A stretch of DNA of 64,000 bases from a virus. Taxonomy: Duplodnaviria > Caudoviricetes. Below, piece after piece: positions 3 to 32,072 of the stretch. Positions within the stretch are counted from its first letter, which is position 1. Each line of letters opens with the position of its first letter. The stretch lies in the IMG/VR virus record IMGVR_UViG_3300028591_000079, positions 32,001 to 96,000 of that record; one strand, written 5' to 3'. A program made the position numbers and the translations under genes. The notes below the pieces were generated by a model. It had not been told where the DNA came from. It was given only the letters and a program-made list of their open reading frames with translations, and searched no databases.

Positions 3-479
3 ATAGTAAAGACGGTTGAAAGGTATCCAGATCTAAAAGTGAATGTACAAATGATTTTAACACAGCACCTTATCAATGAATACAATAAAAATAACAACAT
101 ATTGAAAGAATTAGAAGAAAAACTGCATATTGAATCTATAAATCTTCTTTTCCCACACAAACACAACACTGGAAAGACTCTTGTTGATTTTTATTTGAAG
201 AGAAGTGATTTTTTGAAGTTTTTATATGAGCTAAATAATACAGATCATAAAAAAGTAAGACAGTTTGTGGATAGTATTGTAAATGTGGATGATAATGCTT
301 TAATTGGACTTTATAGAAGAGATAAAATTGAAAAAAATGAAATAAACATAGACCAATTACCAATGAAGGAAGATAATAAAACCGTAATAAATCCAAAATG
401 CGGACACTCAACATTATATCAGTGCTATGAAGACTCTGATAAGTGTATGTTTTGTGATATAAGAAAGTTTCAGTGCTAA
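3..479 (+). CDS. C-terminal part of radical-SAM family paralog (5'-truncated by window)
   Basis: Frame open from base 3; ends in CGHSTLYQCYEDSDKCMFCD, the same Cys tail as the downstream radical-SAM proteins. Confidence 0.75.
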   Translation: MVKTVERYPDLKVNVQMILTQHLINEYNKNNNILKELEEKLHIESINLLFPHKHNTGKTLVDFYLKRSDFLKFLYELNNTDHKKVRQFVDSIVNVDDNALIGLYRRDKIEKNEINIDQLPMKEDNKTVINPKCGHSTLYQCYEDSDKCMFCDIRKFQC

Positions 480-499
480 TCATCTAAAAGGAGGAGGAA

Positions 500-1630
500 A
501 TGATACCACTATTTAAAGTTTTTATGGCAGATTCAGTAGATAAGCCATTATTAGAAACACTTCATTCTGGTTTTATTGGTGAAGGTCCAAAAGTACTAGA
601 ATTTGAAGAAACACTTAAAAAACATCTTAAAACAGAAAATGTATTAACTACTAATTCTGGTACTTCTGCATTATATCTTATTTATCATATGATAAAACAT
701 CCAAAAACTTCACATGTGTTGCGAAAAACAATTATAACAACACCCATAACTTGTACGGCAACAAATAATCCAATTGTTCTAAATGATATAGACATTGCTT
801 GGGCTGATGTTGATCCAATTACGGGAAACATTACTCCAGAATCGTTACTGGAAGCGCTGATGATAGAGCCAAATGGATATGCTTACAACACCCAGGGTGT
901 ATCTATAGTTCATTGGGGTGGAAATCCTTGTGATATAGAGGATATAGCTAAAATATCACATTCTTATGGTCTAAAACTTATAGAAGATGGTGCGCATTCA
1001 TTTGGTATGGAATATAATGGAAAACCTTTTGGATATTATTCAGATTTTGCTATGCACTCATTTCAAGCAATAAAGCATATAACTGCGGGGGATGGTGGTT
1101 GTTTAATATGTAAAAATAAGGATGATTATGAAAGAGCCAAGCTATTAAGATGGTATGGTATAGATAGAGAAATAAAAGAAGGCATAGATCTAAGATGCGA
1201 ATTAGACATTGCTGAAGCTGGATATAAATTTCACATGAATGATTTAGCGGCAACAATTGGTAATGAAAATTTTAAATATCTACCACAAATATTACAAAAG
1301 CATAGAGATAATGCAAAATTTTATGACAAAGCATTTGAGGGAAAAGTAAAATATGCACCAGAAAATCCAAATGGTAAATCAGCTTATTGGTTATATACTA
1401 TTCATGCCGAAAATAGAGATGAATTGATGCAAAAACTAAAAGAAAAAGGTATTATGGCATCAAAGGTACACTCAAGAAATGACACTCATAGTATGTTTAA
1501 GAGTTTTCAAAGACCATTGCCAGGAGTAGAAGAATTCAATCGTACCCATCTTTGTATTCCTGTTGGTTGGTGGGTTACAGAAGAAGATCGTGAATATATT
1601 GCAGAACAGGTGATAAAATATGCAAGATAA
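500..1630 (+). CDS. DegT/DnrJ/EryC1/StrS family PLP-dependent sugar aminotransferase
   Basis: NSGTSAL, VHWGG, IEDGAHSFG, SFQAIKHITAGDGG (PLP Lys), GYKFHMND; SD AGGAGG. Confidence 0.95.
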   Translation: MIPLFKVFMADSVDKPLLETLHSGFIGEGPKVLEFEETLKKHLKTENVLTTNSGTSALYLIYHMIKHPKTSHVLRKTIITTPITCTATNNPIVLNDIDIAWADVDPITGNITPESLLEALMIEPNGYAYNTQGVSIVHWGGNPCDIEDIAKISHSYGLKLIEDGAHSFGMEYNGKPFGYYSDFAMHSFQAIKHITAGDGGCLICKNKDDYERAKLLRWYGIDREIKEGIDLRCELDIAEAGYKFHMNDLAATIGNENFKYLPQILQKHRDNAKFYDKAFEGKVKYAPENPNGKSAYWLYTIHAENRDELMQKLKEKGIMASKVHSRNDTHSMFKSFQRPLPGVEEFNRTHLCIPVGWWVTEEDREYIAEQVIKYAR

Positions 1631-2459
1631 ACCAAAACTTTCAATTGTAGCCGGTATTTATTTTCCTCTAGAGATTTGTTTTAGAAGGTTTTTGGATGCG
1701 TGTCTTAGTCAAACAATAAAAGATGTTGAATTTATATTTCTATTAGATTCGCCTGAAGATAAACAATCAAGAAATATATTAGAAGAGTATAAAGACCTAT
1801 TGGATAACCGCTTTATAATTGTAGAAAATGAAAAAAATTTAGGGGTTGTTGATACATATTTGAAAGGTTGTGAGTTATCTAAAAGTGATTGTGTTATGAT
1901 AGTTGACTCAGATGATTTTTTTGATAATGACCTAATTGAAAAGATGTATAATTATTTTATTGAGCATGGTTTAGATTTTTTAGGCCCTAGAATATTGATG
2001 AGTTATCTTGGTGAATTAGATGTTTTTTATGCCTTAAACAATAACGATGATCCAACAGATACAGGAATAATGTTTAGAAAGAAGATTTTGGGTGAATATG
2101 AGGAATTTAGAAAATATATCAATTACACACTTATAAATACAATAAAAAAGACCAATTACAAAGTTGATGTTTTACCGTTAGATTTTGAAAGTTTTTATTA
2201 TTATACAGTCACCAATAGAAGTGCAACAAGTAGTTTTATATTACAAGACAACGGTGAAGTTCCCAAAAGCAAAGACTATCAATATTATAAAGATGGTGTG
2301 ATTAGATTTATAGAGACATTTTTGAGCAATACAACAAATAAAAAGATCAAATTTGAAGATTATACATTAGATGAATTGAAAGATATGGCAAAAAAGTATC
2401 TTGATTTAGACAATTTATTAGAAAACGACCTAACCTGTGAAGAGCTAAAAAAAATCTGA
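1620..2459 (+). CDS. GT2-family glycosyltransferase
   Basis: CLSQT, NEKNLG, DSDD DxD motif. Confidence 0.85.
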   Translation: MQDKPKLSIVAGIYFPLEICFRRFLDACLSQTIKDVEFIFLLDSPEDKQSRNILEEYKDLLDNRFIIVENEKNLGVVDTYLKGCELSKSDCVMIVDSDDFFDNDLIEKMYNYFIEHGLDFLGPRILMSYLGELDVFYALNNNDDPTDTGIMFRKKILGEYEEFRKYINYTLINTIKKTNYKVDVLPLDFESFYYYTVTNRSATSSFILQDNGEVPKSKDYQYYKDGVIRFIETFLSNTTNKKIKFEDYTLDELKDMAKKYLDLDNLLENDLTCEELKKI

Positions 2460-2812
2460 TGAATGAATATTATAATATCTTAAAAGAAAATCATAAAAAC
2501 ATAAAATACCATCCTGGTTTTGATATGCTAGTTATTAAGTGTACAAATATAAAAGAACAATTGACAGGCCTAAAAAAGATTGTAAAAACGCTCATATTTG
2601 GTATTCAATCTAAAAAAATAAACAAAAATTCGATTATAATAGAGATTAATGGTGAAGATTTTATTAAAGATGATATTATAATACTACTAAACATTATGAA
2701 ACTCACTAAAACGTCTCATTATTTCAATATAGTGGTCAAAAACGGATTAGATAGTAGGATAGAGTTTATAAGATGCAAATATAGAGGAGTAAAAATAAAT
2801 GAAGGGATATAA
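2459..2812 (+). CDS. hypothetical protein, paralog of 4045-4527
   Basis: Translationally coupled; LKKIVKTLIFGIQSKK resembles LKKLINMTLYMIQTKK. Confidence 0.65.
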   Translation: MNEYYNILKENHKNIKYHPGFDMLVIKCTNIKEQLTGLKKIVKTLIFGIQSKKINKNSIIIEINGEDFIKDDIIILLNIMKLTKTSHYFNIVVKNGLDSRIEFIRCKYRGVKINEGI

Positions 2813-3209
2813 AGTAATAGATTTTGAAGTGCACCCAGATGAGAGAGGAAAATTGACTGCTGTATCTGAAATGAAAGAGATACCGTTTGAGATAAAAAGA
2901 ATATACTACACATGGGATATGCCAAAAGAAGCAATTAGGGGAGGACATGCACACAAGGTTTTAGATGAAGTAATGATTTGTTTGCGTGGTTCTTGTGATT
3001 TTGTGTTAGATGATGGAAAAGAAAAAATTACAATCACACTAGACAGACCAAACAAGGGATTATATGTGTCAGCTCATTTATGGAGACATTTTACTAATTT
3101 TTCTCCAGACTGCGTTGTTATGTTGATTGCCTCAGACTATTTTCACCCAGAAGATCATGTAAAAGATTATAATGAGTTTTTAAAGCTAAGAGCAGAAGAT
3201 GAAGAATAA
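2799..3209 (+). CDS. FdtA/QdtA/WxcM-like dTDP-sugar 3,4-ketoisomerase (cupin)
   Basis: DERGKL, PFEIKRIYY, RGGHAH, LIASDYF. Confidence 0.92.
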   Translation: MKGYKVIDFEVHPDERGKLTAVSEMKEIPFEIKRIYYTWDMPKEAIRGGHAHKVLDEVMICLRGSCDFVLDDGKEKITITLDRPNKGLYVSAHLWRHFTNFSPDCVVMLIASDYFHPEDHVKDYNEFLKLRAEDEE

Positions 3210-4044
3210 TATAAAAATTTCTGTTATTACTGGAGTTTATCATCCGAATGAGTCTTTATTTCGGAAGTTTTTATATTCCTGCTTAAATCAAACTCTAGAT
3301 GGAATACAATTTATTATGGTTTTTGATGATCCAGAAGATAAAAATTCTAGAAGCATAATAAAAGAACACCAAGAACAAATAGATAATAACAAAAATACTT
3401 TTACGATACTAGAAAATAATAAAAACTTGGGAATATATGAAACACAAATGAAAGGATTGAAAAACGCATTGGGTGAATATATTGTGTTTTTTGATGATGA
3501 TGATTTTTTTGATTTTGAATATTTAGAGATAATGTACAAATATGCTAAAGAGTTTGATGCAAATGTCATAAAAGGCTGGGCATTGACTCATTATTTTGGA
3601 GATATAGATTTGAATTTTACTTTTATATGTCAACACGAAAATATATTCAATGAAGACGATTGGTTATATATGTACAAAAAAGATTTCTTCGTTAATTATT
3701 TCTATTATTCTAAAATGTACACTTCTGATACGGCAATAACAAACAGATCAAAAGAAAAAGAAATAATATTACAAATTCCATTTTATGAGGGTGTATTTTA
3801 TCATTATGTTAGGCACTGTGATAATACATCTTTTGTTCCAATTACAGAAGAAAATTTTAGCATCAGCAACAGTGAGGGTGTGGAAGATCAAAGAAGAATA
3901 TATGAAAGGTTTATGAAGGATGTAAAAGAAGAGTTTGATATAGAAAAAACAAACAAGCAAAAACTAACGACTATTTTACAAAATCATTTAAGACTAGATA
4001 ATACATCAAACGACTATAATTTTGAAAGACTGAAAGGATTATAA
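3199..4044 (+). CDS. GT2-family glycosyltransferase (paralog of 1620-2459)
   Basis: CLNQT, NNKNLG, GEYIVFFDDDD. Confidence 0.87.
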   Translation: MKNNIKISVITGVYHPNESLFRKFLYSCLNQTLDGIQFIMVFDDPEDKNSRSIIKEHQEQIDNNKNTFTILENNKNLGIYETQMKGLKNALGEYIVFFDDDDFFDFEYLEIMYKYAKEFDANVIKGWALTHYFGDIDLNFTFICQHENIFNEDDWLYMYKKDFFVNYFYYSKMYTSDTAITNRSKEKEIILQIPFYEGVFYHYVRHCDNTSFVPITEENFSISNSEGVEDQRRIYERFMKDVKEEFDIEKTNKQKLTTILQNHLRLDNTSNDYNFERLKGL

Positions 4045-4527
4045 ATGAACATAGGTATAGATATTTATAAAAACAGTCTTCATTTATCTAATCAACAGGC
4101 TATAAGTATAATAAAAAGAGCTCGTTATATGTTATCTGGACTGCAAACACAAAAAGAAGATATTATTGGATTTAATTTTGGTGGCATATTTACAAAAGAA
4201 GAAAAAGTATTGTTAGAGCTAAAAAAACTAATCAATATGACACTATACATGATACAAACAAAAAAATTAGATGGGATAGTATTATATATAGATGAATTGA
4301 TTGATAAAGAAGAATTTAGAAATATAATAGATCTTGCTAAATTTTCTGGTATAACAAACAGATTAAAAATAAAAACTAAAAGCATTAAAGATAAAGATTT
4401 TTTAATGTATTATCCTGAATTAAAAGTTGAAATTATTGAAAAAGATGATACAATATTCAGTAAAAGATATGTATTAGATCAAAAGGAAGAGTTTATTTGC
4501 AAATTATATGAAAATGGAGAAAAATAA
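4045..4527 (+). CDS. hypothetical protein, possibly degenerate radical-SAM N-terminal half
   Basis: GFNFGGIF aligns by eye with GIIGGEFF of neighbours; no CxxxCxxC. Confidence 0.55.
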   Translation: MNIGIDIYKNSLHLSNQQAISIIKRARYMLSGLQTQKEDIIGFNFGGIFTKEEKVLLELKKLINMTLYMIQTKKLDGIVLYIDELIDKEEFRNIIDLAKFSGITNRLKIKTKSIKDKDFLMYYPELKVEIIEKDDTIFSKRYVLDQKEEFICKLYENGEK

Positions 4528-5474
4528 TGCAGTTAGATAGTAGGTTTTTGCAATTAGTTTTATGGGTAGATTGTAATAGTCATTGTGCTTTTTGTTTGAA
4601 TCGAAGAGGATTAATGAATAAAGACTTTCACGAAGATAAGATAGAAAATATACATAAAGCCTTAGAAATAGTAAAAAACATAAAACAGGGACAGTATGAT
4701 TTTGTTGGTATTATCGGTGGCGAATTTTTTCAAGGACAAATAACGGAAGAAGTTGCACCACATTATCAAGAACTAGTAGATGAAATAAAAAGCAAAATTG
4801 ATAAAGGATATATAAAAAAATTGTTTGTGGCCAGTTCTTTGATGGGTCCGGATAATTATAATGAGTTTCAGAAATATTTTAGTGCATTTGATAGGTCTGA
4901 AATATTAATCTGTACATCATATAATACTTGGGGACAGTTTGGTTTTTTCCCTGAATCTAATTGGCAAGAAAACTACAAAAAATTTACAGATAATGGGTAC
5001 CAACTGCACATTGAAATTATAGCATCAGAAGCAAATCTAAATGCAATACTTGAAGGAAAATTGAATTTACTTCCTTGGGTTAGAAACAATATTAGAATAG
5101 ACTTCCTTAGACCAATTGATTTCCTAAATGAACCAAAACAAAAATTTCCATGCTTCTTTCCAAAACGAGAAACATTCATAAAATTCATGATGTTCTTAGA
5201 AGTCAATTTCCCGCAAATGATGGATGACTTCATGAGTCTAAAACAAAGAGCTTCGTTGCTACATAACTTTACATTTGATCAAACAGTAGAAAGAAAAGAA
5301 GAGTTTAACGAAGGTGAAGGTTATATAATGGATTGTGGACACTCTAGTTTATTTAAGGCATATATAGATTCAGATCATTGTATGGCTTGTGATATTTTGG
5401 CTTTTTATAAACGAAACAAATATAGAACAGTTGACAAAGATTTACCACAGGAGAAGAAAGATGGCAATGAATAA
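4527..5474 (+). CDS. radical SAM protein (phage paralog family)
   Basis: CNSHCAFC; GIIGGEFFQGQ; CTSYNTWG; C-terminal CGH...DSDHCMACD. Confidence 0.88.
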   Translation: MQLDSRFLQLVLWVDCNSHCAFCLNRRGLMNKDFHEDKIENIHKALEIVKNIKQGQYDFVGIIGGEFFQGQITEEVAPHYQELVDEIKSKIDKGYIKKLFVASSLMGPDNYNEFQKYFSAFDRSEILICTSYNTWGQFGFFPESNWQENYKKFTDNGYQLHIEIIASEANLNAILEGKLNLLPWVRNNIRIDFLRPIDFLNEPKQKFPCFFPKRETFIKFMMFLEVNFPQMMDDFMSLKQRASLLHNFTFDQTVERKEEFNEGEGYIMDCGHSSLFKAYIDSDHCMACDILAFYKRNKYRTVDKDLPQEKKDGNE

Positions 5475-6459
5475 AAGAATAATACAATATGAAGTTTGGA
5501 AGGAGTGCCATAATCACTGTAAATTTTGTTTTTTGAAAGATGATATACTTCACACTCCTGATCATGTAAAATTGGGTGGTATAAAAAACGCCATAAATCA
5601 AATCACAGATGATATAAACAATAAAAGAATAGATGGTGTAGGTATTATTGGTGGAGATTTTTGGCAAGGTGAAATTACAACAGAAGAAATAAGAACAGAA
5701 TTTTTCAAACTTATAGATTTATGTTTCAATTATCTAAAAAACGGAGACATAAGTGAAGTTTGGTTATCTGCAACATTAACATTAGGAGCTCAAGAAGATT
5801 TATATAGGGCTCTTGATATGTATAATGAAATGATTCCAGATGAAGAAAAAGAAGATAAAAGACTTTGGATCTGCACTTCTTATGATACAATTGGAAGGTT
5901 TCATATACCAGCAATGTTAGAAAACTGGGAATATCACATGAAGAATATTGGCGAAAAGTATCCAAAAGTCTTTAAAAACACATCATTTATTATAACCAAC
6001 GATCTAGTAAAGAAAACATTATCTGGCGAATTTGATTTTATAAAGTTTGAAGAAGAATTTGGAACCAATGTATATATGAAAACCCCATCACACATTTACG
6101 AAGATTGGGAAGAAGGTAAGAAGAAATTTCAAGAGACGGTGGGTGATTTCTTTTTAGAGCGCAAACCAACTATTGAATTCTTACAAAAGCTAAACGAGGT
6201 GTCTCCAGAGTTGTTGAACAAAATAATGAACAATGACTTAAGGGCTAATGTTTTGGTTGGACACAGTAATGATGGGAATTTTGATGTAATGATAAGAGAC
6301 CAAGAAGACCATCATAAAAATATTAGTGTGGCAACTGGCGGAGAAAACACTGAAAAAGCTCAAATAATGGCCTGTGGACACGAAAAACAGTATAAGTGCT
6401 ATATAGACTCAGACAAGTGTTTTATGTGCGATCTACAACGATTATTCAAGGTATTATAG
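5461..6459 (+). CDS. radical SAM protein (phage paralog family)
   Basis: CHNHCKFC; GIIGGDFWQG; CTSYDTIGRFH; CGHEKQYKCYIDSDKCFMCD; start moved to ATG 5461 after AGGAG. Confidence 0.88.
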   Translation: MAMNKRIIQYEVWKECHNHCKFCFLKDDILHTPDHVKLGGIKNAINQITDDINNKRIDGVGIIGGDFWQGEITTEEIRTEFFKLIDLCFNYLKNGDISEVWLSATLTLGAQEDLYRALDMYNEMIPDEEKEDKRLWICTSYDTIGRFHIPAMLENWEYHMKNIGEKYPKVFKNTSFIITNDLVKKTLSGEFDFIKFEEEFGTNVYMKTPSHIYEDWEEGKKKFQETVGDFFLERKPTIEFLQKLNEVSPELLNKIMNNDLRANVLVGHSNDGNFDVMIRDQEDHHKNISVATGGENTEKAQIMACGHEKQYKCYIDSDKCFMCDLQRLFKVL

Positions 6460-6467
6460 GGGGGAAA

Positions 6468-8078
6468 ATGAAAAAATATACTCTATTAGTTGAAGAAGAT
6501 ACAATACATGACAGTGATGTTGTATTGTTAGATGATAAAAAGATATTATGTATACTAGAAAATGAACGTGTAACAAAACATAAGCACGCAGTATATGAAA
6601 AATGTGATGCTATTATAGACTATGTATTGAAACGTTATAATATTGGCAAAGATGAAGTTAATATTGTCAAAGGAATAAATACACAACATAACAGCCATCA
6701 CGAATTACATGCTTTGGCCACATACCTTTCTTCTGGTTATGATAAAGCAAGTATTTTAGTTATAGATGGATATGGAGACCAAGATGATTCTGTGACTTTG
6801 TTTGCAGGGAGAGGTCAAAATATTTACGAATTAAAGAAGTATCACGTAATGTATTCTTTGGGTAATCTTTATAATTGTGCTTCTAGGTTACTCTATGATA
6901 ATGCTGGATATAGTGAAGGTAAGATGATGGGGTTGTCTTGTTGTTCTGAACCTGAATATAGTATACCAAGTCCAATACAATATCATGAAGATGGAACTGT
7001 AGAGTGTATTGCTAAAATAGATGAAAATTGTCCGATAGAAGAAAATATTATGAACTATATAAAGGAACAGTTTTCATATTTGATTGGTAATGATGGCAAT
7101 GTAATGGGTGTTGATATATATAAAGCTAAAATTGCTGCAACTGTTCAATGGTGGTTTACAGAGCAAGTTGTTAATCTGGTCAAATATATCAAAAAGCTAA
7201 ATCCTAACACTGAAAATCTTTGTGTTTGTGGTGGATGTTTTCTAAATTGCGAGACCAATGGAATTATAGACAGACTTGAATTATTCAAAAATATATATTG
7301 TATTCCAGCTCCTGCAGATAATTCAATAGTTTTAGGTAGAGCTCAACAATTTTTGGTAGAAATAGGATCAAAACCACAAACAATAAAAAGTCCATATTGG
7401 GGCCCTGACTCTGATAAAACTTTTGAAGATTTATTGGAAGAATTTAAAATAAAAGAAGTAGATGGTAAATTTAGATCACAAATAACAAATGCTCATGATA
7501 TAAGTAAGTATTCAGAAGATTGGGTTATTGAAAGACTAAAGGCAGATAGGGTTATTTTATGGTTTGATGGTGGTTCTGAATTTGGGCCTCGTGCATTAGG
7601 ACATAGATCGTTTTTAGCCAATCCTGCAACAAATGAAATGTTTTGGAGACTCAGTGTAAAAATCAAAAGTAGAGAAAACTATAGACCACTTGCGCCAATT
7701 ACAACAGATGAGCTATATCCAATGATTTTTGAAGATCCCAATCCAGAAAATCTTACACAATTTATGCTAAAAACAGTAAAAGTAAAAGATGAGTGGAGAT
7801 CTAAACTAAAAGCTGTTACACACATAAATCAAACAGCTCGTCCCCAACGTTTAACTGAAGATGTAAATCCAGTTCTATATTCATTAATAAGCAAATGGTA
7901 TAAAGAATCTGGACTGCCTTGTCTTATAAATACATCTCTAAATCTAAAAGGACAACCATTATTGGAAACATATGACGATTTAAAATCAATTCTTATAAAT
8001 CCTAACATTTTATTGAACAAGTGTAGTGTAGTAATTGATCATAAGTTGTGTTTTGATATTTACGAAGGAGCAGCATAA
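6468..8078 (+). CDS. carbamoyltransferase, NodU/CmcH/TobZ family
   Basis: ENER, SHHELHA, VIDGYGD, EGKMMGL, GGCFLNC, EFGPRALGHRS, RENYRPLAP, INTSLN. Confidence 0.95.
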   Translation: MKKYTLLVEEDTIHDSDVVLLDDKKILCILENERVTKHKHAVYEKCDAIIDYVLKRYNIGKDEVNIVKGINTQHNSHHELHALATYLSSGYDKASILVIDGYGDQDDSVTLFAGRGQNIYELKKYHVMYSLGNLYNCASRLLYDNAGYSEGKMMGLSCCSEPEYSIPSPIQYHEDGTVECIAKIDENCPIEENIMNYIKEQFSYLIGNDGNVMGVDIYKAKIAATVQWWFTEQVVNLVKYIKKLNPNTENLCVCGGCFLNCETNGIIDRLELFKNIYCIPAPADNSIVLGRAQQFLVEIGSKPQTIKSPYWGPDSDKTFEDLLEEFKIKEVDGKFRSQITNAHDISKYSEDWVIERLKADRVILWFDGGSEFGPRALGHRSFLANPATNEMFWRLSVKIKSRENYRPLAPITTDELYPMIFEDPNPENLTQFMLKTVKVKDEWRSKLKAVTHINQTARPQRLTEDVNPVLYSLISKWYKESGLPCLINTSLNLKGQPLLETYDDLKSILINPNILLNKCSVVIDHKLCFDIYEGAA

Positions 8079-10145
8079 ATGACATTTAAAGAGAAGATGG
8101 TAGAATTTTTACAGAACACAGATAAAGATAAAGTTCGTACAAATCTAAACGAAAACAGTATGAGCATATCTATTGGCTGCGACATAAACCATATAGAAGC
8201 TGAAAAAATTCGTACAATGATCAAAAATGCAAATGAGAACTATAAGGTTTGTATTATTCATACTTGTACTGCATATGGACAATTTATAGACTTGACGAAA
8301 GATGTAATCAATTTTGTATCTAAAAATCTTCCAAAGTCATATAGTTTATTTTTGGCTGGTTGTGGGGTAGATACATTTGCAGAAGAATTTCCAAAACTAA
8401 CAATAATATCTGGAAATGCAAAATTTGATGTAGAAAGTTATAATATTCCAAAAGTTGATGATGGCAAATCTGCAGATGCTCCAATGGGAATAATACAAAT
8501 TCAAACAGGATGCAATAATCAATGTTCATACTGCCAATTTCCAATGTTAAAAGGTCACAAATCAATATCTACACCTAAAAAAGAAATATTAGATCTGGTA
8601 AAATATAATATAAATAATGGAGTAAGAGACATAACATTGACAGGAGTAAACATCTGCCAGTATAAAGATCCAAATGATGAAACAGATCTAATTGGACTAC
8701 TAAAATATATAGTCAAAAATAGTATAGGGCTAAATAAACTTTCAATGTATTCGATAGATCCAGCTTATGAAGATATATTTAAATTGATTGATTATATAGA
8801 AGAAGAACCATTGATGAGTAAAGATTTGTATTTGGCAACTCAATCTGGTTCCGATAAGGTGTTGAAAAAAATGAATAGAAGACACAACACTTTTCGCATG
8901 AACTCTATAATAAACTATGTAAAAAATGTAAAACTAAGACATGATTTTATAATTGGGCACCCAGGCGAAGAAGATGAGGATTTTCAACAATCTTTACAAT
9001 TATTAAGAATGACTCAAGAAAACGAAATTGTTGGTGGTATAGCCGAGTTTTATGCGCACGAAGGAACAGCATCTTATTATATGGAAGACAAAGTAGATTC
9101 AAAAATAGCCCATGAAAGATATGAACTCATGACAAATACGCTAAATAAAATAACTAATCTAATAAAACAAGAAGTTAGATGTATTCAATTTGAACTTTGG
9201 CATAATTGTACTAATGAATGCAAATTTTGTTATTTAAATGGTTGTAGAAAGTGCTTTACCGAGGAACAAAAACAAAAATCAATACAAAAAGTTTTAGATA
9301 TATTAGAAACAGATAAAATAAATGGTTTCAATGCTGTTGGGCTTATAGGCGGGGAATTATTTATGGGGCAACAAGGAGATGAAAGAACACAAAACAAATT
9401 TCAAACACTGATACGCAAAATAAAAACATTCCTAGATAAAGATGAAATAAAGGAAGTCTGGTTAACATCCAATCTAATGACGGAAAACATTGGACCACTT
9501 ACGGAGACTTTAGATATATTGATGGAAAAATTGCCTAAATATCAAAGAATCATGTTGTGCACTTCTTATGATACAAAAGGAAGATTCCATACAGAGGCTG
9601 CTTATAAACAATGGTATGATAATTTATTGAGGCTTCGTGAAATTTATCCAAGACTCTGTATTCATATTCAATCTATTTGTACACAAGAATTAGTAAATGA
9701 GTGGTTGACTAACAAAGAAAAGTTTGTAGATTTTATAGATAGAGGCTTCTTAATTGATTTTAAACCACCTGCTACCAATGCTGTAGATTTTATATATAAC
9801 AACACAGGACATGATTCATACAGGGAAAATCTAGAAAAATTTGCAAAAACACAAGACTATAGATACTTAATTGATTCAAGAGAAAAGTTTATGAAATTCT
9901 GGGAGGTTGTATATAATACTTTTCCAGATGGGTTACAAAAACTAAAAGACTTTAATAGTAATCATGTTAAATCTGAGTGTTGTTATTCTGTCCCTTGGAA
10001 TGAATGGTTTGAAAATAGATGGGATAATAATATAGAAAACGCACCTTGTGGACACTGTTGGGATGGTTATTGTTATAAAGATCACCCGGATAGATGTGCC
10101 AAATGCGATGTAGAAAAACTAATAAAAATGTTGGAGAAAAAATAA
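8079..10145 (+). CDS. MiaB/RimO-like methylthiotransferase fused to second radical-SAM domain
   Basis: N-terminal GC..N/HTC/AGC cysteines, GCNNQCSYC, QSGSDKVLKKMNR, DFIIGHPGE; then CTNECKFC, GLIGGELF, TSYDTKGRFH, CGH tail. Confidence 0.88.
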   Translation: MTFKEKMVEFLQNTDKDKVRTNLNENSMSISIGCDINHIEAEKIRTMIKNANENYKVCIIHTCTAYGQFIDLTKDVINFVSKNLPKSYSLFLAGCGVDTFAEEFPKLTIISGNAKFDVESYNIPKVDDGKSADAPMGIIQIQTGCNNQCSYCQFPMLKGHKSISTPKKEILDLVKYNINNGVRDITLTGVNICQYKDPNDETDLIGLLKYIVKNSIGLNKLSMYSIDPAYEDIFKLIDYIEEEPLMSKDLYLATQSGSDKVLKKMNRRHNTFRMNSIINYVKNVKLRHDFIIGHPGEEDEDFQQSLQLLRMTQENEIVGGIAEFYAHEGTASYYMEDKVDSKIAHERYELMTNTLNKITNLIKQEVRCIQFELWHNCTNECKFCYLNGCRKCFTEEQKQKSIQKVLDILETDKINGFNAVGLIGGELFMGQQGDERTQNKFQTLIRKIKTFLDKDEIKEVWLTSNLMTENIGPLTETLDILMEKLPKYQRIMLCTSYDTKGRFHTEAAYKQWYDNLLRLREIYPRLCIHIQSICTQELVNEWLTNKEKFVDFIDRGFLIDFKPPATNAVDFIYNNTGHDSYRENLEKFAKTQDYRYLIDSREKFMKFWEVVYNTFPDGLQKLKDFNSNHVKSECCYSVPWNEWFENRWDNNIENAPCGHCWDGYCYKDHPDRCAKCDVEKLIKMLEKK

Positions 10146-11104
10146 TGAAAGTTTTGCAAATATCTCCTTGGTCTAATTGTAAAAACCACTGTGCCTTTTG
10201 TTCTCAGCGTGGGGATAGACCTTTTACGATTGAAGAAAGAAAACAGCATTTAGAAGATATATATTCTGAATTTATGGATGGTAGTATTTTTCAGAAGTAT
10301 GATTTTGAAGGTTTTGGTATTATAGGTGGAGAGTTTTTTGCCGGACAGATAGATGGAATAGAGGATGTTTGGTATAAGCTGGTTGAACATTTTGCAGAAC
10401 TATTGAAAACACACAAGCTAAAACAAATATGGATCAATAGTAATCTTATACAGGTCAATATGGAACAAATAGAAAAAACCTTTGAAAAATTTGACTGGGA
10501 TAGTTTGGGTGAAGATCAGAAAGTTTTATTACCAACCTCTTATGACACCAAAGGAAGATTTCATACAGAAGAAGATAAGACTCAATGGTATAAAAATGTG
10601 GAATATATAGCTAAAAAATTTCCAAAACTAGAAGTATATGGAACAGCTATTACCACCCAAGCATTTATTGAAGAATTGCTTGAAGATCGTTTTGTTTATC
10701 CAACTGGTCTTAGAGCTTTAAATTTATTGGTGCCAAGACTAACAGATGCAGATTATTTTAGCCCACAAACACACACAAAAGCGTATCGTGAAATTTTATT
10801 ATCTAAATTGAATGAATATCCTGAGTGGTTTTTCCCAAAGTCTAGAAAACAGTTTGTGCAATTTTTATATAAAGTAAGGGAAGTATTGGGAGATGGTGTG
10901 CTAAGAAACTTTTATGAGGTTGAAAGGCATTCTTCTGATGTGTTTACTTATTTTCCAGCTAAAAACACTTACTTTGTAGATCGTCATACTAAATGTAACT
11001 GTAAAGAAAACATGCCTTGTGGACACCCTTATACGTCTTGTTGTTATTTAGATTCTGATAAATGTTGCCACTGTGATGCTCAAAATATTGTAAAGTTTGA
11101 TTAG
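10145..11104 (+). CDS. radical SAM protein (phage paralog family)
   Basis: CKNHCAFC; GIIGGEFFAGQ; TSYDTKGRFH; CGHPYTSCCYLDSDKCCHCD. Confidence 0.88.
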   Translation: MKVLQISPWSNCKNHCAFCSQRGDRPFTIEERKQHLEDIYSEFMDGSIFQKYDFEGFGIIGGEFFAGQIDGIEDVWYKLVEHFAELLKTHKLKQIWINSNLIQVNMEQIEKTFEKFDWDSLGEDQKVLLPTSYDTKGRFHTEEDKTQWYKNVEYIAKKFPKLEVYGTAITTQAFIEELLEDRFVYPTGLRALNLLVPRLTDADYFSPQTHTKAYREILLSKLNEYPEWFFPKSRKQFVQFLYKVREVLGDGVLRNFYEVERHSSDVFTYFPAKNTYFVDRHTKCNCKENMPCGHPYTSCCYLDSDKCCHCDAQNIVKFD

Positions 11105-11124: not shown

Positions 11125-11157
11125 AACCCATTGGATAATTCTGATGGGTTTTTTGTT
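11125..11157 (+). terminator. intrinsic terminator ending the modification operon
   Basis: AACCCATTGGA-TAAT-TCTGATGGGTT hairpin followed by T-tract. Confidence 0.8.
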
Positions 11158-11184
11158 TGATTTTTATATTAAATATGTTATAAT
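11157..11184 (+). promoter_or_regulatory. sigma70-type promoter, extended -10
   Basis: TTGATT-16-TATAAT with TG at -15/-14 and ATTAAA in spacer. Confidence 0.7.
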
Positions 11185-11204: not shown

Positions 11205-11447
11205 ATGTATTTGGTAAAATGCACAGCTGAAGATGGAACATTTGTACTAATCAACCCTAAAGATATACGATGGATAAAACAAAACGAAAAAGATGCTCGA
11301 ATTGAATTTATGAATGGTGAGCAGGTTACTGTGTTATGTGATGATTTTGATGATTTAGAACAAAAAATATTGGATGCAAGTATGCCAGAAATAGATTTAA
11401 AGTCTTTCGATGGTATAAAAGTAATCATTGAAAAAGAGGATAAATAA
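11205..11447 (+). CDS. hypothetical protein
   Basis: AAGGAG SD, directly after promoter. Confidence 0.75.
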   Translation: MYLVKCTAEDGTFVLINPKDIRWIKQNEKDARIEFMNGEQVTVLCDDFDDLEQKILDASMPEIDLKSFDGIKVIIEKEDK

Positions 11448-11532
11448 TGAAAGTAATTGGATTATTGCTTTGTGCTATTTTTATTTTTACCATTTTGTAT
11501 CAAGAAATCAAAGGAATAAAAGGAGACAAATA

Positions 11533-12126
11533 ATGGGAGAGTTGTTGAGTTGTTGTGATGAGTATTTAGAAAAGATTGATCCAGTTGATAGAGATACTGT
11601 TCATAAAGAAGGAATCTGGCATAAAACTTCTCACGTCTGGTTGTATGATGAAGAAGGTTATGTATATTTTCAAGTAAGGGCTGATGCAGATAAACTTTAT
11701 ACTTCAGCTTCTGGTCATGTAAGAGCAGGAGAAGATCCGAGATATACAGGCTTAAGAGAAACAGCTGAAGAATTAGGATTTAGAATTGATGGTGAAGATA
11801 AGTTGGAATTGATAGAAATAGATGCGTGGAAATTAGATAACGAAGTAAAACACGACCATGCATTTGCTTATATCTATATCTGTAAAATACCTGCAAACTA
11901 TTCTTCTTTTAGTGTTGATCCAAATGAAGTATCTGATGTGGTAAAAGTAAAAGCAAAAGAACTACTTGGATATTTACTTGGTTTACCTTGCGCATGTGAA
12001 CAATTTGATGTGCATGGAAATAAACTAAAGAAGAATAAAGACCTACTACTGATGAACGGTGAAGTTAGTATTTTGAAGTATGGAAGAATTTTAAAAGCAA
12101 TTGTAGAAAGGATAAACAATGAATAA
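11533..12126 (+). CDS. NUDIX hydrolase (IDI-like)
   Basis: Nudix box GHVRAGEDPRYTGLRETAEELG; start moved to ATG 11533 after AAGGAG. Confidence 0.9.
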   Translation: MGELLSCCDEYLEKIDPVDRDTVHKEGIWHKTSHVWLYDEEGYVYFQVRADADKLYTSASGHVRAGEDPRYTGLRETAEELGFRIDGEDKLELIEIDAWKLDNEVKHDHAFAYIYICKIPANYSSFSVDPNEVSDVVKVKAKELLGYLLGLPCACEQFDVHGNKLKKNKDLLLMNGEVSILKYGRILKAIVERINNE

Positions 12127-12374
12127 TATATTGTGGAAGCTTAGAAAATTGTTTTGTTGGCATAGTTGGGAGTTTTTTACCGAGTATGATGAATATAATG
12201 GTAAAAAAGACTATCATTATACTGTTTATCAATGCAAAAAATGTAATCAAGTGAAAATAGAAAGAAGAATAAAGGATTAATAATGAATAATGTTTGGGGT
12301 TATGTATTTTGTTTTTTGGTTGGATATATAATGGGTGCAATAAATGATTACTATCAAAATAAAGAGGGTAAATA

Positions 12375-13109
12375 ATGAATAAAATAATGTTAGATATCGA
12401 AACCACTGGAAATATTGTAAACACAGCCATTATTCAACTCTCAATGGTTAGATTTGATGAAGAGGGGGGTGTTGGAGACTTTATACGTATTAATATTGAT
12501 GCAGAAGAACAATATAAGTTAGGGGCTCAATATACTCAAAATACTTTAGACTGGTGGCAGGAAACAAACAAAGAGCTCTTTGAGTCTATTACAACTAAAA
12601 ACGTTCTATCGGTAAATACAGCATTGGACATTATAGATGCTTTTGTTACTATGGATGATCAAATTTGGTGTCATGCTACTTTTGATATGCCAATACTAGA
12701 TAATCTTTACCATTTAGCAGGCAGAGATAAAAGACCGTGGAAATATACAAAAATAAGAGATATTAGAACAATTGTGGAACTCTCTGGTATTGACCTTTCA
12801 ACATATAATTGGGGAAAAGAAAAAACACACGACTCTTTGGATGATTGCAGATTCCAAATAAAATATACAACAGATGCCATGAAAATGTTGAAAATCAGTA
12901 AAAATGGTGTTGAAAATTTGGAGCGTATGATAAAAGGACTCTGTGAAATGGAAAATTATATTGTAGGACTCAAATCACCATCTAAAGACACAATAGAATT
13001 AGGTAATAAAATATTCAATCTACGTGTCGAACAAATGAAGGCTATGGATCTAATTAATCAAAATAATGAATATTCTTACTCTAATTGGATAGAAGGCGCC
13101 GATGATTAG
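12375..13109 (+). CDS. DEDDh 3'-5' exonuclease (Rv2179c/ExoVIII-like)
   Basis: MLDIETTG, TLDWW, FDMPIL, RDIRT, HDSLDDC. Confidence 0.88.
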   Translation: MNKIMLDIETTGNIVNTAIIQLSMVRFDEEGGVGDFIRINIDAEEQYKLGAQYTQNTLDWWQETNKELFESITTKNVLSVNTALDIIDAFVTMDDQIWCHATFDMPILDNLYHLAGRDKRPWKYTKIRDIRTIVELSGIDLSTYNWGKEKTHDSLDDCRFQIKYTTDAMKMLKISKNGVENLERMIKGLCEMENYIVGLKSPSKDTIELGNKIFNLRVEQMKAMDLINQNNEYSYSNWIEGADD

Positions 13110-26371: not shown

Positions 26372-27100
26372 CTACCCCCTTACTAAATTTACCATTGTTT
26401 CTAATTCTTCAAAATCATCAAACTCTATTATTTTCCTACCATCTTTTTCTATTGCCAGTGTTTCTAATCTGTCCCCATTCCATTCATCGCCCACTAATTC
26501 TAAATAATTCTCGTGTAACTTATATTTCTTAATCTTTTTATAATACGAAACATCAATAAATAAATCCCATATAAATTTCCACCTCTTATAATACTCTAAT
26601 GTTCCCTTCTCACATAATCTATCTAATGCATCTAAACATTCTTCATTAAACGCATAAATACCATTCCCATAATCAGATCCTACGCCTAAAAACTCCCCTA
26701 TCCTTATCGCATCATCACTACTGTTTATCATCAAGCATATCCTATTCCCATCATGCCTCGCCCATATGTTTACCATACCGTAGTTCTTCAATATCTCTTC
26801 GTTCAATTCCACTCTCTTCTTAACCCAATCACCCATCTCTATCAATCTTTCATTTTTCTCCAAGATATCTATAGCGTCTGTGTTTCTTCCACTTATTATA
26901 TCTTCTACCATGCCACTTATACTATCATACTCCCCACAAAATTTCCCACATACATATAAATACCTACCATCCCCTACAACAACCTCATTACAAAAACCAA
27001 ATACCTCCTCCCCAAAATAATAAGTCCCATTACAATAAACTATCCCACTCTGTGACTCTAACCATTTTCTTCCTAACTCTAAATGCTCTTCTATCGTCAT
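26372..27100 (-). CDS. 242-aa protein, probable paralog of 51457-52194
   Basis: Ends FEELETMVNLVRG. Confidence 0.75.
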   Translation of the reverse strand: MTIEEHLELGRKWLESQSGIVYCNGTYYFGEEVFGFCNEVVVGDGRYLYVCGKFCGEYDSISGMVEDIISGRNTDAIDILEKNERLIEMGDWVKKRVELNEEILKNYGMVNIWARHDGNRICLMINSSDDAIRIGEFLGVGSDYGNGIYAFNEECLDALDRLCEKGTLEYYKRWKFIWDLFIDVSYYKKIKKYKLHENYLELVGDEWNGDRLETLAIEKDGRKIIEFDDFEELETMVNLVRG

Positions 27101-27135
27101 AATTTTATCCTTTTTAATAACATTCCTTTGTATTT

Positions 27136-27909
27136 TTATGATTTACTATTTGGACTGTTGGGATATAACTCATCTAAAAAATTGCTTTTCATATATCCAC
27201 GTTTCACTCCCTTAAACATAGTACTTAAATAAAACATCCCAGACCTTTCTTCTGTCTCACTATTACTATAACACTTCAACTCCTTTACAAAAAATAAACA
27301 TATCCCTTCTTTATCATACACATATCTCACATCTATTGAATCATGCTCTAAATCAAATTCATCAATAAGCCACCGTACACCTTCACACACCTTCCGTACT
27401 AATCCTACCTCGTCTTCATTATTGTATCTCGGTATTAGTAAGTGTAAATGCCAAAAACTACTCTCACCACGATCCATACACCCAATAAAATGTAACGGAT
27501 GCCTTCTCCAATTTTTCCCATATAAATGACACTCAAAACTACCTACCAATTTTTTATATCTCTCAAATGCTTCTTCACACTTCCTCGTCTTTTCTATCCC
27601 CTGTATATTTTTTGTTGGTAATGTCATAGTAATAAGAAGCGTGTAATCTAACCCTATCAATTTGTTATACCATCCGCTTTGATAATTGTTTATATTCACT
27701 CTATGTTCACGATATGCTTCCCCAAATACACTCTTATTATATAAACAATATTCTTCTCTTATTATCTTGTCTATTAATTCTGCATTGTCTTCCATATCTT
27801 TATTTGCCCTTTTGTTTTGTTCTTTTTTGAGAAGGGTTAGGTTTAGCTTATAGATGCGATCCCCTAACTCACCCGAAAGTCCATAATTAATCTCTTTATT
27901 CCTTCTCAA
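27136..27909 (-). CDS. HUH-motif (Rep-like) protein
   Basis: LITMTL (motif I-like), WHLHLLI (HUH), FFVKE (motif III position, Tyr absent). Confidence 0.55.
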   Translation of the reverse strand: MRRNKEINYGLSGELGDRIYKLNLTLLKKEQNKRANKDMEDNAELIDKIIREEYCLYNKSVFGEAYREHRVNINNYQSGWYNKLIGLDYTLLITMTLPTKNIQGIEKTRKCEEAFERYKKLVGSFECHLYGKNWRRHPLHFIGCMDRGESSFWHLHLLIPRYNNEDEVGLVRKVCEGVRWLIDEFDLEHDSIDVRYVYDKEGICLFFVKELKCYSNSETEERSGMFYLSTMFKGVKRGYMKSNFLDELYPNSPNSKS

Positions 27910-27921
27910 AACTCTTTCTAC

Positions 27922-30704: not shown

Positions 30705-30724
30705 TTATCCCTCCTTTGGTTTGT

Positions 30725-31057: not shown

Positions 31058-31080
31058 TTGTTATATCTCCTTAGTATTGT

Positions 31081-31123
31081 AAAAAAAGAAACCCCATCAA
31101 AAGGACTGTAGCATATGATGGGG
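31081..31123 (-). terminator. intrinsic terminator
   Basis: CCCCATCA..TGATGGGG with U-tract on minus strand. Confidence 0.6.
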
Positions 31124-31152
31124 ATAAGTCAAAATTAAATCATATCTTTTTG

Positions 31153-31857: not shown

Positions 31858-31877
31858 ATCCGGTCTCCTTTTATTTA

Positions 31878-32060: not shown

Positions 32061-32072
32061 TTTAGTCCTCCT

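What the first reader, a model, noticed from the sequence alone, without database searches (positions are those of the whole stretch)
3..11104. Phage operon with five copies of an unusual radical-SAM domain carrying a conserved CGH-x5-CY-x-DSD-x-Cx2CD tail
Seen: 4527, 5461, the C-half of 8079 and 10145 share W-x2-Cx3Cx2C, G[IL]IGG[ED][FL][FW]xG and TSY[DN]TxG[RQ]F. These four plus the truncated ORF 3-479 end in a compact Cys tail (about Cx7Cx6Cx2C; second Cys is Ala in 4527). Known: CxxxCxxC binds the SAM-cleaving [4Fe-4S] cluster, and SPASM/twitch C-terminal domains bind auxiliary clusters. I do not recognise this tail as either. Inference: an expanded, possibly undescribed radical-SAM subfamily working in series or as a hetero-oligomer with the co-transcribed sugar and carbamoyl enzymes to build a complex modification (DNA base, virion glycan or host surface).
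Basis: partly seen in the sequence, partly recalled or inferred. Interest (0 to 1): 0.8.

Follow-up and report, generated by a model that had tools for sequence, protein, structure and literature searches.

The report
Phage radical-SAM set beside poly-serine-tailed proteins
An uncultured 231-kb gut/rumen phage carries seven copies of an undescribed type of radical-SAM enzyme that, across its relatives, always sits beside proteins ending in a run of 14-35 serines and cysteines. This makes it most likely a virus-encoded machine for chemically rebuilding that protein tail, not a sugar or DNA pathway.

Summary
The window cuts the operon: the phage has seven paralogs, not five.

The proteins are true radical-SAM enzymes. 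CX3CX2C is kept in 99% of 133 members and GGE in 98%. The AlphaFold model (pLDDT 87) matches SkfB, anSME, SuiB, viperin and EpeE at Z 12-15. They fit no Pfam, NCBIfam, SPASM or twitch definition. About 865 cluster representatives exist, all unnamed metagenome sequences.

In 37 related loci the conserved neighbours are not the sugar genes. They are a 244-aa protein and one or two ~200-aa proteins ending in [S/C]14-35 plus xFIAYM[D/N][I/L]. Four old enzyme orthogroups recur in a usual order. One has lost the tail's Cys and His.

The invariant tail ligands are C-x-H...C-x2-C. This looks more like a RING-type Cys3His zinc site than an auxiliary Fe-S cluster, but that is unproven.

My best reading (about 0.55) is a RiPP-like, multi-enzyme modification of the Ser/Cys tail. 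Glycosyl, carbamoyl and methylthio steps are added in some lineages. The chemistry is unknown.

This scan had already flagged the same cassette on this genome (e1-5665493, e1-5665492).

The parts
3..479 (+). C-terminal 158 aa of paralog rs3. The full gene is 308 aa at genome 31553-32479 and starts 447 nt before the window. The tail motif is at 399-458. Orthogroup G5.
500..1630 (+). DegT/PseC-like nucleotide-sugar aminotransferase. Lineage-specific accessory gene.
   Evidence: Pfam PF01041 at 4e-68. It falls below all NCBIfam equivalog cut-offs. A homologue occurs in only 1 of 37 related loci.
1620..2459 (+). GT2 family glycosyltransferase.
   Evidence: PF00535 at 1e-18. The best PDB relative is GalT1 5hea at 2e-8, a generic GT-A match.
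2459..2812 (+). 117-aa protein of no known family, weakly similar to the 160-aa protein at 4045-4527.
2799..3209 (+). FdtA/WxcM-like sugar 3,4-ketoisomerase domain.
   Evidence: PF05523 at 6.5e-47
3199..4044 (+). Second GT2 family glycosyltransferase.
   Evidence: PF00535 at 7e-19
4045..4527 (+). 160-aa protein, possibly a half copy of the radical-SAM family that has lost the cluster motif. It has no CX3CX2C, and 'FNFGGIF' sits where the GGE motif would be.
   Evidence: The Atlas structure search gives TM 0.73-0.79 (by query) to viral radical-SAM clusters, but the Atlas model has pLDDT of only 0.60. Sequence support is weak.
4527..5474 (+). Paralog rs4 (315 aa). The second tail Cys is Ala. It groups loosely with orthogroup G1.
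5461..6459 (+). Paralog rs5 (332 aa), orthogroup G10. This is the protein that was modelled.
6396..8078 (+). NodU/CmcH-type carbamoyltransferase. A recurrent accessory gene of the cassette.
   Evidence: PF16861 at 4e-48 and PF02543 at 7e-27. PHROG 1601 at 1.5e-78. Present in 8 of 37 related loci.
8079..9125 (+). N-half of the 688-aa fusion: a MiaB/RimO-type methylthiotransferase with the three N-terminal Cys and its own CX3CX2C at 8511-8534. There is no TRAM domain.
   Evidence: TIGR00089 at 2e-52 over profile positions 6-369 of 429. PF04055 scores 90 bits. The sequence is shown.
9126..10145 (+). C-half of the fusion: paralog rs6, orthogroup G6, occupying the place of the TRAM domain.
10145..11104 (+). 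Paralog rs7 (319 aa from the ATG at 10145; the ORF is open from 10094).
11125..11150 (+). Terminator-like hairpin (11-bp stem plus a T run) that marks the 3' end of the operon. A promoter-like site follows at 11157-11184.

Best explanation
The seven proteins belong to an undescribed, phage-restricted branch of the peptide-modifying (SPASM/twitch-like) radical-SAM enzymes. Each keeps the SAM-cleaving [4Fe-4S] site and so should make a 5'-deoxyadenosyl radical (inferred).

The likely substrate (inferred from conserved gene neighbourhood) is the C-terminal tract of the co-encoded ~200-aa proteins. That tract is 14-35 Ser with 0-8 Cys, ending in xFIAYM[D/N][I/L]. The conserved 244-aa protein probably acts as an adaptor.

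Four ancient orthogroups (usual order G3-G1-G5-G10) act as separate steps or as one hetero-oligomer on that tract. This would be H-atom abstraction at Ser/Cys C-alpha or C-beta, giving epimerisation, oxidation to formylglycine, or thioether/ether links. Which of these happens is not known.

In this phage and one buffalo-rumen relative the tail is probably decorated further. The candidate steps are O/S-glycosylation (two GT2s with an amino-deoxysugar made by FdtA plus DegT), carbamoylation, and methylthiolation by the MiaB/RimO-like domain fused to rs6.

The C-terminal C-x-H...C-x2-C tail is more likely a structural Cys3His zinc site (treble-clef, like RING site 2) than an auxiliary Fe-S cluster. 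My odds are about 55:40.
For: Radical-SAM identity:
- CX3CX2C is kept in 99%, GGE in 98% and the S-x-D ribose motif in about 100% of 133 members.
- The AF2 model has pLDDT 87.
- The only PDB sequence hit is YydG/EpeE at 4e-6, and Foldseek ranks EpeE first at 8e-7.
- VIA scores: SkfB Z 14.8, anSMEcpe 14.6 over the whole length, SuiB 14.2, CteB 13.7, EpeE 12.3.

The cassette:
- In 26 viral and 11 MAG loci the only genes conserved around the family are the 244-aa protein (26 loci) and the tailed proteins (26 loci by homology, 29 by tail pattern).
- Whole modules of tailed protein, 244-aa protein and about 3 enzymes are duplicated together in L020, L033 and L011.
- The reverse search with the DNA pattern of the tail cap in 2.9 million viral contigs gave 8 hits. 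All are in such cassettes, including one new contig.
- Ser codons in the tracts are mixed, so selection acts on the protein.

Orthogroups: four groups occur in 22-27 loci each, with support 0.84-1.0 and a usual order.

Accessory genes:
- Carbamoyltransferase occurs in 8 loci and the MiaB-like enzyme in about 6. A classical SPASM radical-SAM enzyme occurs in 3.
- GT2, DegT and carbamoyltransferase genes are interleaved again in a 245-kb relative.

Tail as a zinc site:
- The invariant residues are C, H, C, C. The 'second Cys' is present in only 33% of members.
- Orthogroup G1 replaced the ligands by G[YF]xDSDxxM while keeping all catalytic motifs.
- The C-x2-C sits at the start of the last helix.
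- The only weak matches are zinc fingers: RNF4 RING 0.013, Vps27 FYVE 0.22, Prok-RING_1 0.0067.
Against: - No chemistry was tested. The substrate assignment rests on gene neighbourhood alone.
- The tailed protein's N-domain and the 244-aa protein match no known fold or family, so their roles are guesses.
- There is no recognisable RiPP recognition element.
- The fold matches to peptide maturases tie with viperin, BlsE and DesII, which act on nucleotides or sugars.
- Eight of 37 loci show no tailed protein. Most of these are cut by contig ends, but L027 has a lone enzyme in 17.9 kb.
- The zinc-finger matches are not statistically significant, and Cys3His sites can also hold Fe-S clusters.
Confidence: 0.55

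Rival explanations
1. The paralogs act on nucleotide-sugars or a glycan. They would reshape the sugar made by FdtA/DegT and moved by the GT2s, in the manner of DesII or BlsE. The tailed protein would be only the final acceptor, or unrelated.
For: Sugar genes sit inside the operon here and again in the buffalo-rumen relative. The model matches the sugar-acting twitch enzymes BlsE (Z 14.0) and DesII (Z 12.6) about as well as it matches the peptide maturases.
Against: In the 37-locus tally DegT occurs in 1 locus and FdtA and GT2 in none. GT2 homologues appear only in the extension of that same relative (L055). The four-orthogroup enzyme set with the tailed protein is kept throughout, and a core pathway cannot depend on genes that most cassettes lack.
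Confidence: 0.13
2. The enzymes modify something else, such as a host or phage protein, a small molecule or a lipid. The poly-Ser/Cys protein would then be a scaffold, carrier or regulator of the enzyme complex rather than its substrate.
For: Co-localisation shows a functional link, not which partner is the substrate. The tail cap xFIAYM[D/N][I/L] could be a docking strand. Paralogs of the N-domain without any tail are also kept in many cassettes.
Against: A homopolymeric tract under protein-level selection that is duplicated together with its own enzyme set is what precursor-enzyme pairs look like. The accessory enzymes (O-carbamoyltransferase, GT2, RimO-like) all have plausible targets on Ser/Cys side chains.
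Confidence: 0.2
3. The operon hypermodifies phage DNA bases, as radical-SAM steps do in the thymidine hypermodification pathways.
For: Phage DNA hypermodification clusters can include radical-SAM and PLP enzymes (PMC8989533, found; I did not read it in depth).
Against: No DNA-handling, kinase or hydroxymethyl-pyrimidine genes were seen among the genes scanned in the operon and its flanks. No such gene is shared across the cassettes, where only the 244-aa protein and the tailed proteins recur.
Confidence: 0.03
4. Most copies are inactive structural relics, and only one or two are enzymes.
For: One orthogroup lost the tail ligands, and a 160-aa neighbour looks like a half copy without the cluster motif.
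Against: The cluster triad, GGE and ribose motifs are kept in 98-100% of 133 members across all orthogroups.
Confidence: 0.05

Closest known systems
EpeE/YydG, the radical-SAM peptide epimerase of Bacillus subtilis (PDB 8ai1-8ai6; PMC13012085)
   Same: It is the only solved protein found by sequence profile (4e-6, N-terminal 185 residues) and is the top Foldseek hit. It is a small (~320 aa) enzyme that acts on a ribosomal peptide.
   Different: EpeE carries an auxiliary [4Fe-4S] cluster in an extended twitch ('T-SPASM') domain and uses Cys223 as H-donor (PMC13012085). Here the C-terminus does not align by sequence. The conserved Cys are confined to the cluster triad and the last 20-residue motif, and one orthogroup has none in the tail.
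anSME (anaerobic sulfatase-maturating enzyme, PDB 4k36-4k39)
   Same: It gives the best whole-length structural alignment (model 4-332 to chain 2-361, Z 14.6). It acts on a Ser or Cys side chain of a protein, the two residues that make up the tract here (from my own knowledge of anSME).
   Different: anSME has a seven-Cys SPASM domain with two auxiliary clusters and modifies one residue in a sulfatase motif. No SPASM match or motif is present here.
Proteusin / polytheonamide pathway (PoyB, PoyC, PoyD), recalled from my own knowledge and not tested here
   Same: Several radical-SAM enzymes make many modifications on one ribosomal product that has a large N-terminal leader-like domain.
   Different: Those enzymes belong to different radical-SAM classes (B12-dependent methylases and an epimerase), the core is not homopolymeric, and the system is bacterial. 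Here four paralogs of one new family act beside a Ser/Cys homopolymer, in phages.
Sactipeptide and ranthipeptide maturases (SkfB, CteB, SuiB-type)
   Same: They are among the top fold matches (SkfB Z 14.8, SuiB 14.2, CteB 13.7). Their precursors contain Cys.
   Different: They have SPASM/twitch clusters and an N-terminal RRE domain. Here there is no RRE, the tail is Cys3His, and at least one tract has no Cys at all.
Multi-copy radical-SAM genes of Campylobacter phages CP220/CPt10 (PMC2853527)
   Same: These phage genomes hold 11-12 radical-SAM genes, five of them in one exchangeable module, and their function is unknown.
   Different: It is not the same family. The family profile scores only E 0.0097 on the cluster loop of one CP220 gene, and there is no tailed-protein homologue.
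MiaB/RimO/MtaB methylthiotransferases
   Same: The N-half of the 688-aa fusion has the three-Cys N-domain and the radical-SAM core (TIGR00089 at 2e-52). RimO acts on a protein.
   Different: The C-terminal TRAM domain is replaced by a full copy of the new family. The score is below the family cut-off (178 against 251 bits).

Membership tests
Radical SAM superfamily | CX3CX2C motif that binds the SAM-cleaving [4Fe-4S] cluster | tested here: met
   Present in all seven paralogs. The three Cys are 99% conserved in 133 members.
Radical SAM superfamily | GGE SAM-binding motif and the beta-4 ribose motif | tested here: met
   G63, G64 and E65 are 98-99% conserved. S135 and D137 are 98-100% conserved.
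Radical SAM superfamily | Partial TIM-barrel fold | tested here: met
   The AF2 model has pLDDT 87. It scores Z 12-15 against many solved radical-SAM enzymes.
Radical SAM superfamily | Pfam PF04055 gathering score (29.5 bits) | tested here: not met
   The new-family domains that hit PF04055 score 19.8-25.3 bits, and rs5 and rs3 have no hit at E 0.01. 16 of 22 members hit at E<=0.01, the best at 7e-6. Only the MiaB-like half of the fusion passes (90 bits). This shows how divergent the family is, not that it lies outside the superfamily.
Radical SAM superfamily | Reductive cleavage of SAM to 5'-deoxyadenosine | not testable with these tools
   This needs an enzyme assay.
SPASM domain (PF13186 / TIGR04085) | Seven-Cys motif CX9-15GX4C...CX2CX5CX3C...C that binds two auxiliary clusters | tested here: not met
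   No SPASM hit at E<=0.01 in 22 members or in the window proteins. Only 3-4 Cys lie downstream of the core. True SPASM enzymes in three cassettes do show CX2CX5CX3C, which serves as a positive contrast.
Twitch domain | Beta-hairpin plus helix after the barrel | tested here: inconclusive
   The model has a hairpin at 264-279 and a last helix at 321-331. I had no coordinates with which to superpose them.
Twitch domain | One auxiliary [4Fe-4S] cluster held by Cys that flank the hairpin | tested here: not met
   No conserved Cys lies between alignment columns 133 and 290. All ligands sit in one 19-residue stretch after the hairpin. Whether any cluster binds there cannot be tested with these tools.
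YydG/EpeE epimerase family | Full-length homology, and a conserved thiol H-donor (Cys223 in EpeE) | tested here: inconclusive
   The profile match covers only residues 3-185. No conserved Cys exists outside the cluster triad and the tail, but position 223 could not be aligned.
RiPP-like precursor and maturase system | Enzyme genes consistently next to a gene whose product carries a distinctive core peptide | tested here: met
   Found in 26-29 of 37 loci. Modules are duplicated together, and the reverse search gave 8 of 8 hits in such cassettes.
RiPP-like precursor and maturase system | Enzyme-dependent modification of the core peptide | not testable with these tools
   This needs co-expression and mass spectrometry.
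RiPP-like precursor and maturase system | RiPP recognition element (RRE) in the enzyme or a partner | tested here: inconclusive
   No Pfam or PHROG hit for the 244-aa protein. The Atlas gave no lead. No structure was predicted for it.
RING / treble-clef zinc site | Cys-x-His plus Cys-x2-Cys ligand set, with the second pair at a helix N-terminus | tested here: inconclusive
   The ligand set is invariant and C320/C323 lie at the start of helix 321-331. The matches are weak: RNF4 0.013, FYVE 0.22, Prok-RING_1 0.0067. Metal content is untested.
MiaB/RimO methylthiotransferase (N-half of the fusion) | N-terminal three-Cys domain, radical-SAM core and C-terminal TRAM domain | tested here: not met
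   The first two are present. The TRAM domain is absent and is replaced by the new family's domain. The TIGR00089 score is 178 bits against a cut-off of 251.

The most novel reading that the evidence does not exclude
Jumbo phages of gut and rumen carry a self-contained set of four radical-SAM enzymes. It turns a genetically encoded poly-Ser/Cys tract on a folded protein into a new, heavily modified polymer, for example D/L-alternating, aldehyde-bearing or cross-linked. Some lineages then glycosylate, carbamoylate or methylthiolate it. This would be a protein-scale, virus-encoded counterpart of RiPP maturation, using an enzyme family whose auxiliary Fe-S domain has been replaced by a zinc knuckle.
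Probability: 0.35. Interest if true: 0.85.

Novelty: new variant of a known kind. Interest (0 to 1): 0.72.

Why it matters
Radical-SAM maturases are the main source of unusual peptide chemistry, yet almost all known ones are bacterial and act on short peptides.

This is a phage-restricted family of about 865 cluster representatives, none of them named. It has a new C-terminal metal-binding module and four co-inherited paralogs. Its likely substrate is a near-homopolymer of serine on a ~200-aa protein.

If the tail is the substrate, the products would be new post-translational chemistry on Ser/Cys. They would also be a new way for large phages to build a modified protein, perhaps for the virion surface or for takeover of the host.

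The system can be tested directly by co-expression, because all parts sit in one operon.

Tried and rejected
1. Cultured-phage relatives. Megablast of the operon and tblastn of rs5 and rs7 against 50,697 phage records gave nothing, even at E 0.01. Only PHROG 1802 hits three paralogs (2e-14 to 5e-9).
2. Campylobacter phage CP220, known for 11 radical-SAM genes. It is not this family and has no tailed protein.
3. NCBIfam found no family for any of the new domains.
4. Fold of the tailed protein's N-domain (AF2 pLDDT 77). Foldseek against PDB and BFVD gave nothing at E<=0.001. VIA against 48,161 chains gave a best Z of 4.5.
5. The 244-aa protein has no Pfam, PHROG or Atlas lead and no Cys/His motif.
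6. N-terminal extensions of 180-330 aa on fused family members. They have no Pfam hit and are neither the 244-aa nor the tailed-protein family.
7. Linkage to the major capsid gene. A Gp23-like gene lies 5 kb upstream here but is shared with only one related locus.
9. The tailed-protein alignment was too variable for the search for related loci.
10. I could not read model coordinates, so ligand distances in the tail were not measured.
11. Literature searches for poly-serine plus radical SAM, and for phage-encoded RiPP systems, found nothing relevant.

Full report
**Setting.** The window is bases 32001-96000 of a 231,064-bp IMG/VR phage record that is 96% complete. Its G+C content is about 30%. 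Every gene from the window start to 11104 is on the + strand with touching or overlapping ends. A terminator-like hairpin at 11125-11150 follows the last gene.

**Checking the observation.**
- The alignment of the five window proteins shows the three core motifs and the tail exactly as described. Their coordinates are listed.
- The strict tail pattern occurs six times in the six-frame translation of the whole genome, always at the end of a paralog, and never in 20 shuffles.
- The window cuts the operon. A search of the whole genome with rs5 found eight matching stretches between genome 26986 and 43095. These resolve into seven genes: rs1 27019-27963, rs2 30547-31560, rs3 31553-32479 (the ORF truncated at window 3-479), rs4, rs5, the C-half of the 688-aa fusion (rs6), and rs7.
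- rs1 has a degenerate tail.

**What the proteins are.**
- Pfam sees the radical-SAM domain only below its cut-off (19.8-25.3 bits against 29.5). 16 of 22 members hit at E<=0.01 and none hits SPASM.
- NCBIfam has no model for them. PHROG 1802 hits three of the seven.
- In 133 members taken from related loci, the cluster triad is 99% conserved, GGE 98-99%, the S-x-D ribose motif 98-100%, and an Arg after it 99%.
- An AlphaFold model of rs5, built on 22 sequences, has pLDDT 87 and pTM 0.87.
- The family profile finds only YydG/EpeE among all PDB sequences (4e-6, first 185 residues). Foldseek also ranks EpeE first (8e-7).
- Re-scoring by VIA gives a near-tie: SkfB 14.8, anSMEcpe 14.6 (aligned over the whole model), SuiB 14.2, viperin-like about 14, BlsE 14.0, CteB 13.7, PqqE 13.1, MoaA 12.7, DesII 12.6, EpeE 12.3.
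- The family therefore sits in the SPASM/twitch neighbourhood of the superfamily, with no single closest relative.

**How large the family is.**
- A word-indexed search gave 44 hits, all unnamed metagenome proteins.
- An exhaustive HMM search of 1.84 billion cluster representatives gave 865 at E<=0.001 and 289 at E<=1e-30. Such small numbers show that the profile is specific and does not pull in the wider superfamily.
- Some members are fused to a MiaB-like half, as in this phage. Others carry N-terminal extensions of 180-330 aa with no known domain.

**The neighbourhood survey changes the interpretation.** I fetched 26 loci from viral contigs, most of them 140-313 kb. I also fetched 11 from gut and rumen 'MAG' contigs, several of which are 245-283-kb contigs that look like phage genomes.
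- Comparing every ORF of genome 8-52 kb with these loci, the only shared genes are the radical-SAM family (36 loci), a 244-aa protein (26), and two paralogous ~220-aa proteins (26). Carbamoyltransferase is shared with 8 loci. DegT, the 160-aa protein and the capsid gene are each shared with one locus.
- The ~220-aa proteins lie just upstream of the window (genome 29233-29895 and 29898-30554). Each ends in Cys plus 20-23 Ser and then (I)FIAY.
- Across the loci there are 39 such tails in 29 loci. The tract is 14-35 residues long (median 24) with 0-8 Cys, and the cap consensus is xFIAYM[D/N][I/L] followed by the stop.
- Ser codons are mixed among AGT, TCA, TCT, AGC, TCC and TCG, so the tract is kept at the protein level.
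- The gene order 244-aa protein, tailed protein(s), then 4-8 enzymes is typical. In L020, L033 and L011 whole modules are duplicated together.
- Some loci looked as if they lacked a tailed protein only because of the flank limit. In the contig of L039 the tailed proteins lie 10 kb further upstream.
- A reverse search with the DNA pattern of four Ser codons plus the FIAYM[D/N]I cap in all 2.9 million viral contigs gave eight hits. Seven are in contigs already found through the enzyme. The eighth is a new contig that again has the 244-aa protein, two tailed-family proteins and the enzymes.
I saw it after finding the upstream copies, and the tallies here are my own test of it.

**The paralogs are old and non-redundant.** A tree of the 133 members resolves four large orthogroups, each present in 22-27 of the 27 genomes with members in the tree (26 viral loci plus this phage; the MAG loci were not in the tree). 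Support is 0.84-1.0, and the usual order is G3, G1, G5, G10.
- The groups differ at the 'second Cys' of the tail. G3 has Lys, G5 has Cys, and G10 has Ala or Ser.
- G1 has lost all Cys and His of the tail but keeps G[YF]xDSDxxM and all catalytic motifs.
- This phage has G3 (rs1), two G5 (rs2, rs3), G10 (rs5), G6 (rs6), a singleton (rs7), and rs4, which groups loosely with G1.

**The tail.**
- Only C-x-H and C-x2-C are invariant in tail-bearing members, together with Y, two Asp and the Asp after the last Cys. The second Cys is present in 33% of members.
- No conserved Cys flanks the predicted beta-hairpin at 264-279, and the SPASM motif is absent. Both known auxiliary-cluster architectures therefore fail their sequence definitions.
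- In the model the C-x2-C lies at the first turn of the last helix (321-331), as in treble-clef zinc sites.
- A tail-only profile finds just two weak PDB matches, and both are zinc fingers: the C-G-H-x2-C part of the RNF4 RING (0.013) and the DSD-x-C-x2-C part of a FYVE domain (0.22). Pfam gives Prok-RING_1 at 0.0067 on rs3.
- C-x-H with C-x2-C is the ligand set of RING site 2 (established knowledge).
- Loss of all ligands in one otherwise intact orthogroup is typical of structural zinc sites.
- None of this is proof. I put zinc at about 55% and an Fe-S cluster at about 40%.

**The accessory genes.**
- The sugar block (DegT aminotransferase, FdtA-type isomerase, two GT2s) is missing from nearly all cassettes.
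- In a 245-kb buffalo-rumen relative, however, GT2, DegT and carbamoyltransferase genes are again interleaved with about eleven family members. In this sub-clade they therefore belong to the same pathway.
- GT2 enzymes include peptide O/S-glycosyltransferases (my own knowledge). The closest solved relative here is GalT1 5hea at 1e-8 to 2e-8, a generic match.
- The carbamoyltransferase recurs in 8 loci and a MiaB/RimO-like enzyme in about 6. Three cassettes add a classical SPASM enzyme.
- In this phage the MiaB-like half keeps its three N-terminal Cys and its own CX3CX2C, but has the new domain where TRAM should be.

**Mechanism.**
- Shown: a conserved cassette, intact catalytic motifs, and four co-inherited orthogroups.
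- Inferred: the Ser/Cys tract is the substrate and the 244-aa protein is an adaptor. The four enzymes carry out radical H-abstraction steps on Ser/Cys. Sugar, carbamoyl and methylthio groups are lineage-specific additions.
- The specific chemistry (epimerisation, as in EpeE; oxidation to formylglycine, as in anSME; or thioether/ether links) is open.
- No conserved thiol outside the metal sites is available as an H-donor. That weighs slightly against an EpeE-type epimerase.

**Novelty.** Radical-SAM maturation of a ribosomal product is a known kind of system. The new features are the enzyme family, its tail, the four-paralog set, the homopolymeric Ser/Cys substrate on a folded protein, and the restriction to large phages. 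I found no paper on it. The multi-radical-SAM Campylobacter phages are a different case. The scan itself had already noted the same cassette on this genome.

Noticed in passing
L046:14391-15053 (genome 24391-25053, upstream of the window): A 220-aa protein matches the S-adenosylmethionine lyase family (PF23780 at 9e-10) about 2 kb upstream of an operon with seven SAM-dependent radical enzymes. It is odd for one phage to both destroy and rely on SAM. Timing or compartment may separate the two.
   Followed up: no
window 4045-4527 and 2459-2812: The 160-aa protein looks by structure like the first half of the viral radical-SAM family but lacks the Cys triad (Atlas TM 0.73-0.79 on a low-confidence model). 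The 117-aa protein is weakly similar to it (E 0.016). They may be degenerate copies or non-catalytic partners.
   Followed up: partly
L011:12755-13771(-), L016:7356-8378, L020:15839-16900: Three related cassettes add a classical SPASM radical-SAM enzyme with CX2CX5CX3C. In L011 it sits next to a stand-alone MiaB-like gene.
   Followed up: partly
proteins P0035, P0142, P0170 (family members): The family domain is split by inserts of about 110-120 residues, just after the cluster motif in P0035 and P0170 and mid-domain in P0142. These may be inteins or mobile inserts.
   Followed up: no
L012:5653-6249, L020:8279-8785 and similar: Many cassettes also keep a paralog of the tailed protein that stops exactly where the Ser tract would begin. 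It may be a tail-less partner or competitor.
   Followed up: no
L046:10670-12229(-) and L046:8406-9200: A Gp23-like major capsid gene (4e-22) lies 5 kb upstream of the cassette, and a weak, sub-threshold Stealth CR2 match (sugar-phosphate transferase family) lies 8 kb upstream.
   Followed up: no
window 43928-47206 (-) and 62173-63450 (+): There is a MoxR-type AAA protein, a DUF2201 metallopeptidase/VWA protein and an M16 peptidase. Any of these proteases could process a modified tail, but they are far from the operon.
   Followed up: no
window 11428-13109: A NUDIX hydrolase and an Rv2179c-like 3'-5' exoribonuclease follow the operon's terminator. They are not shared with related cassettes.
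   Followed up: partly
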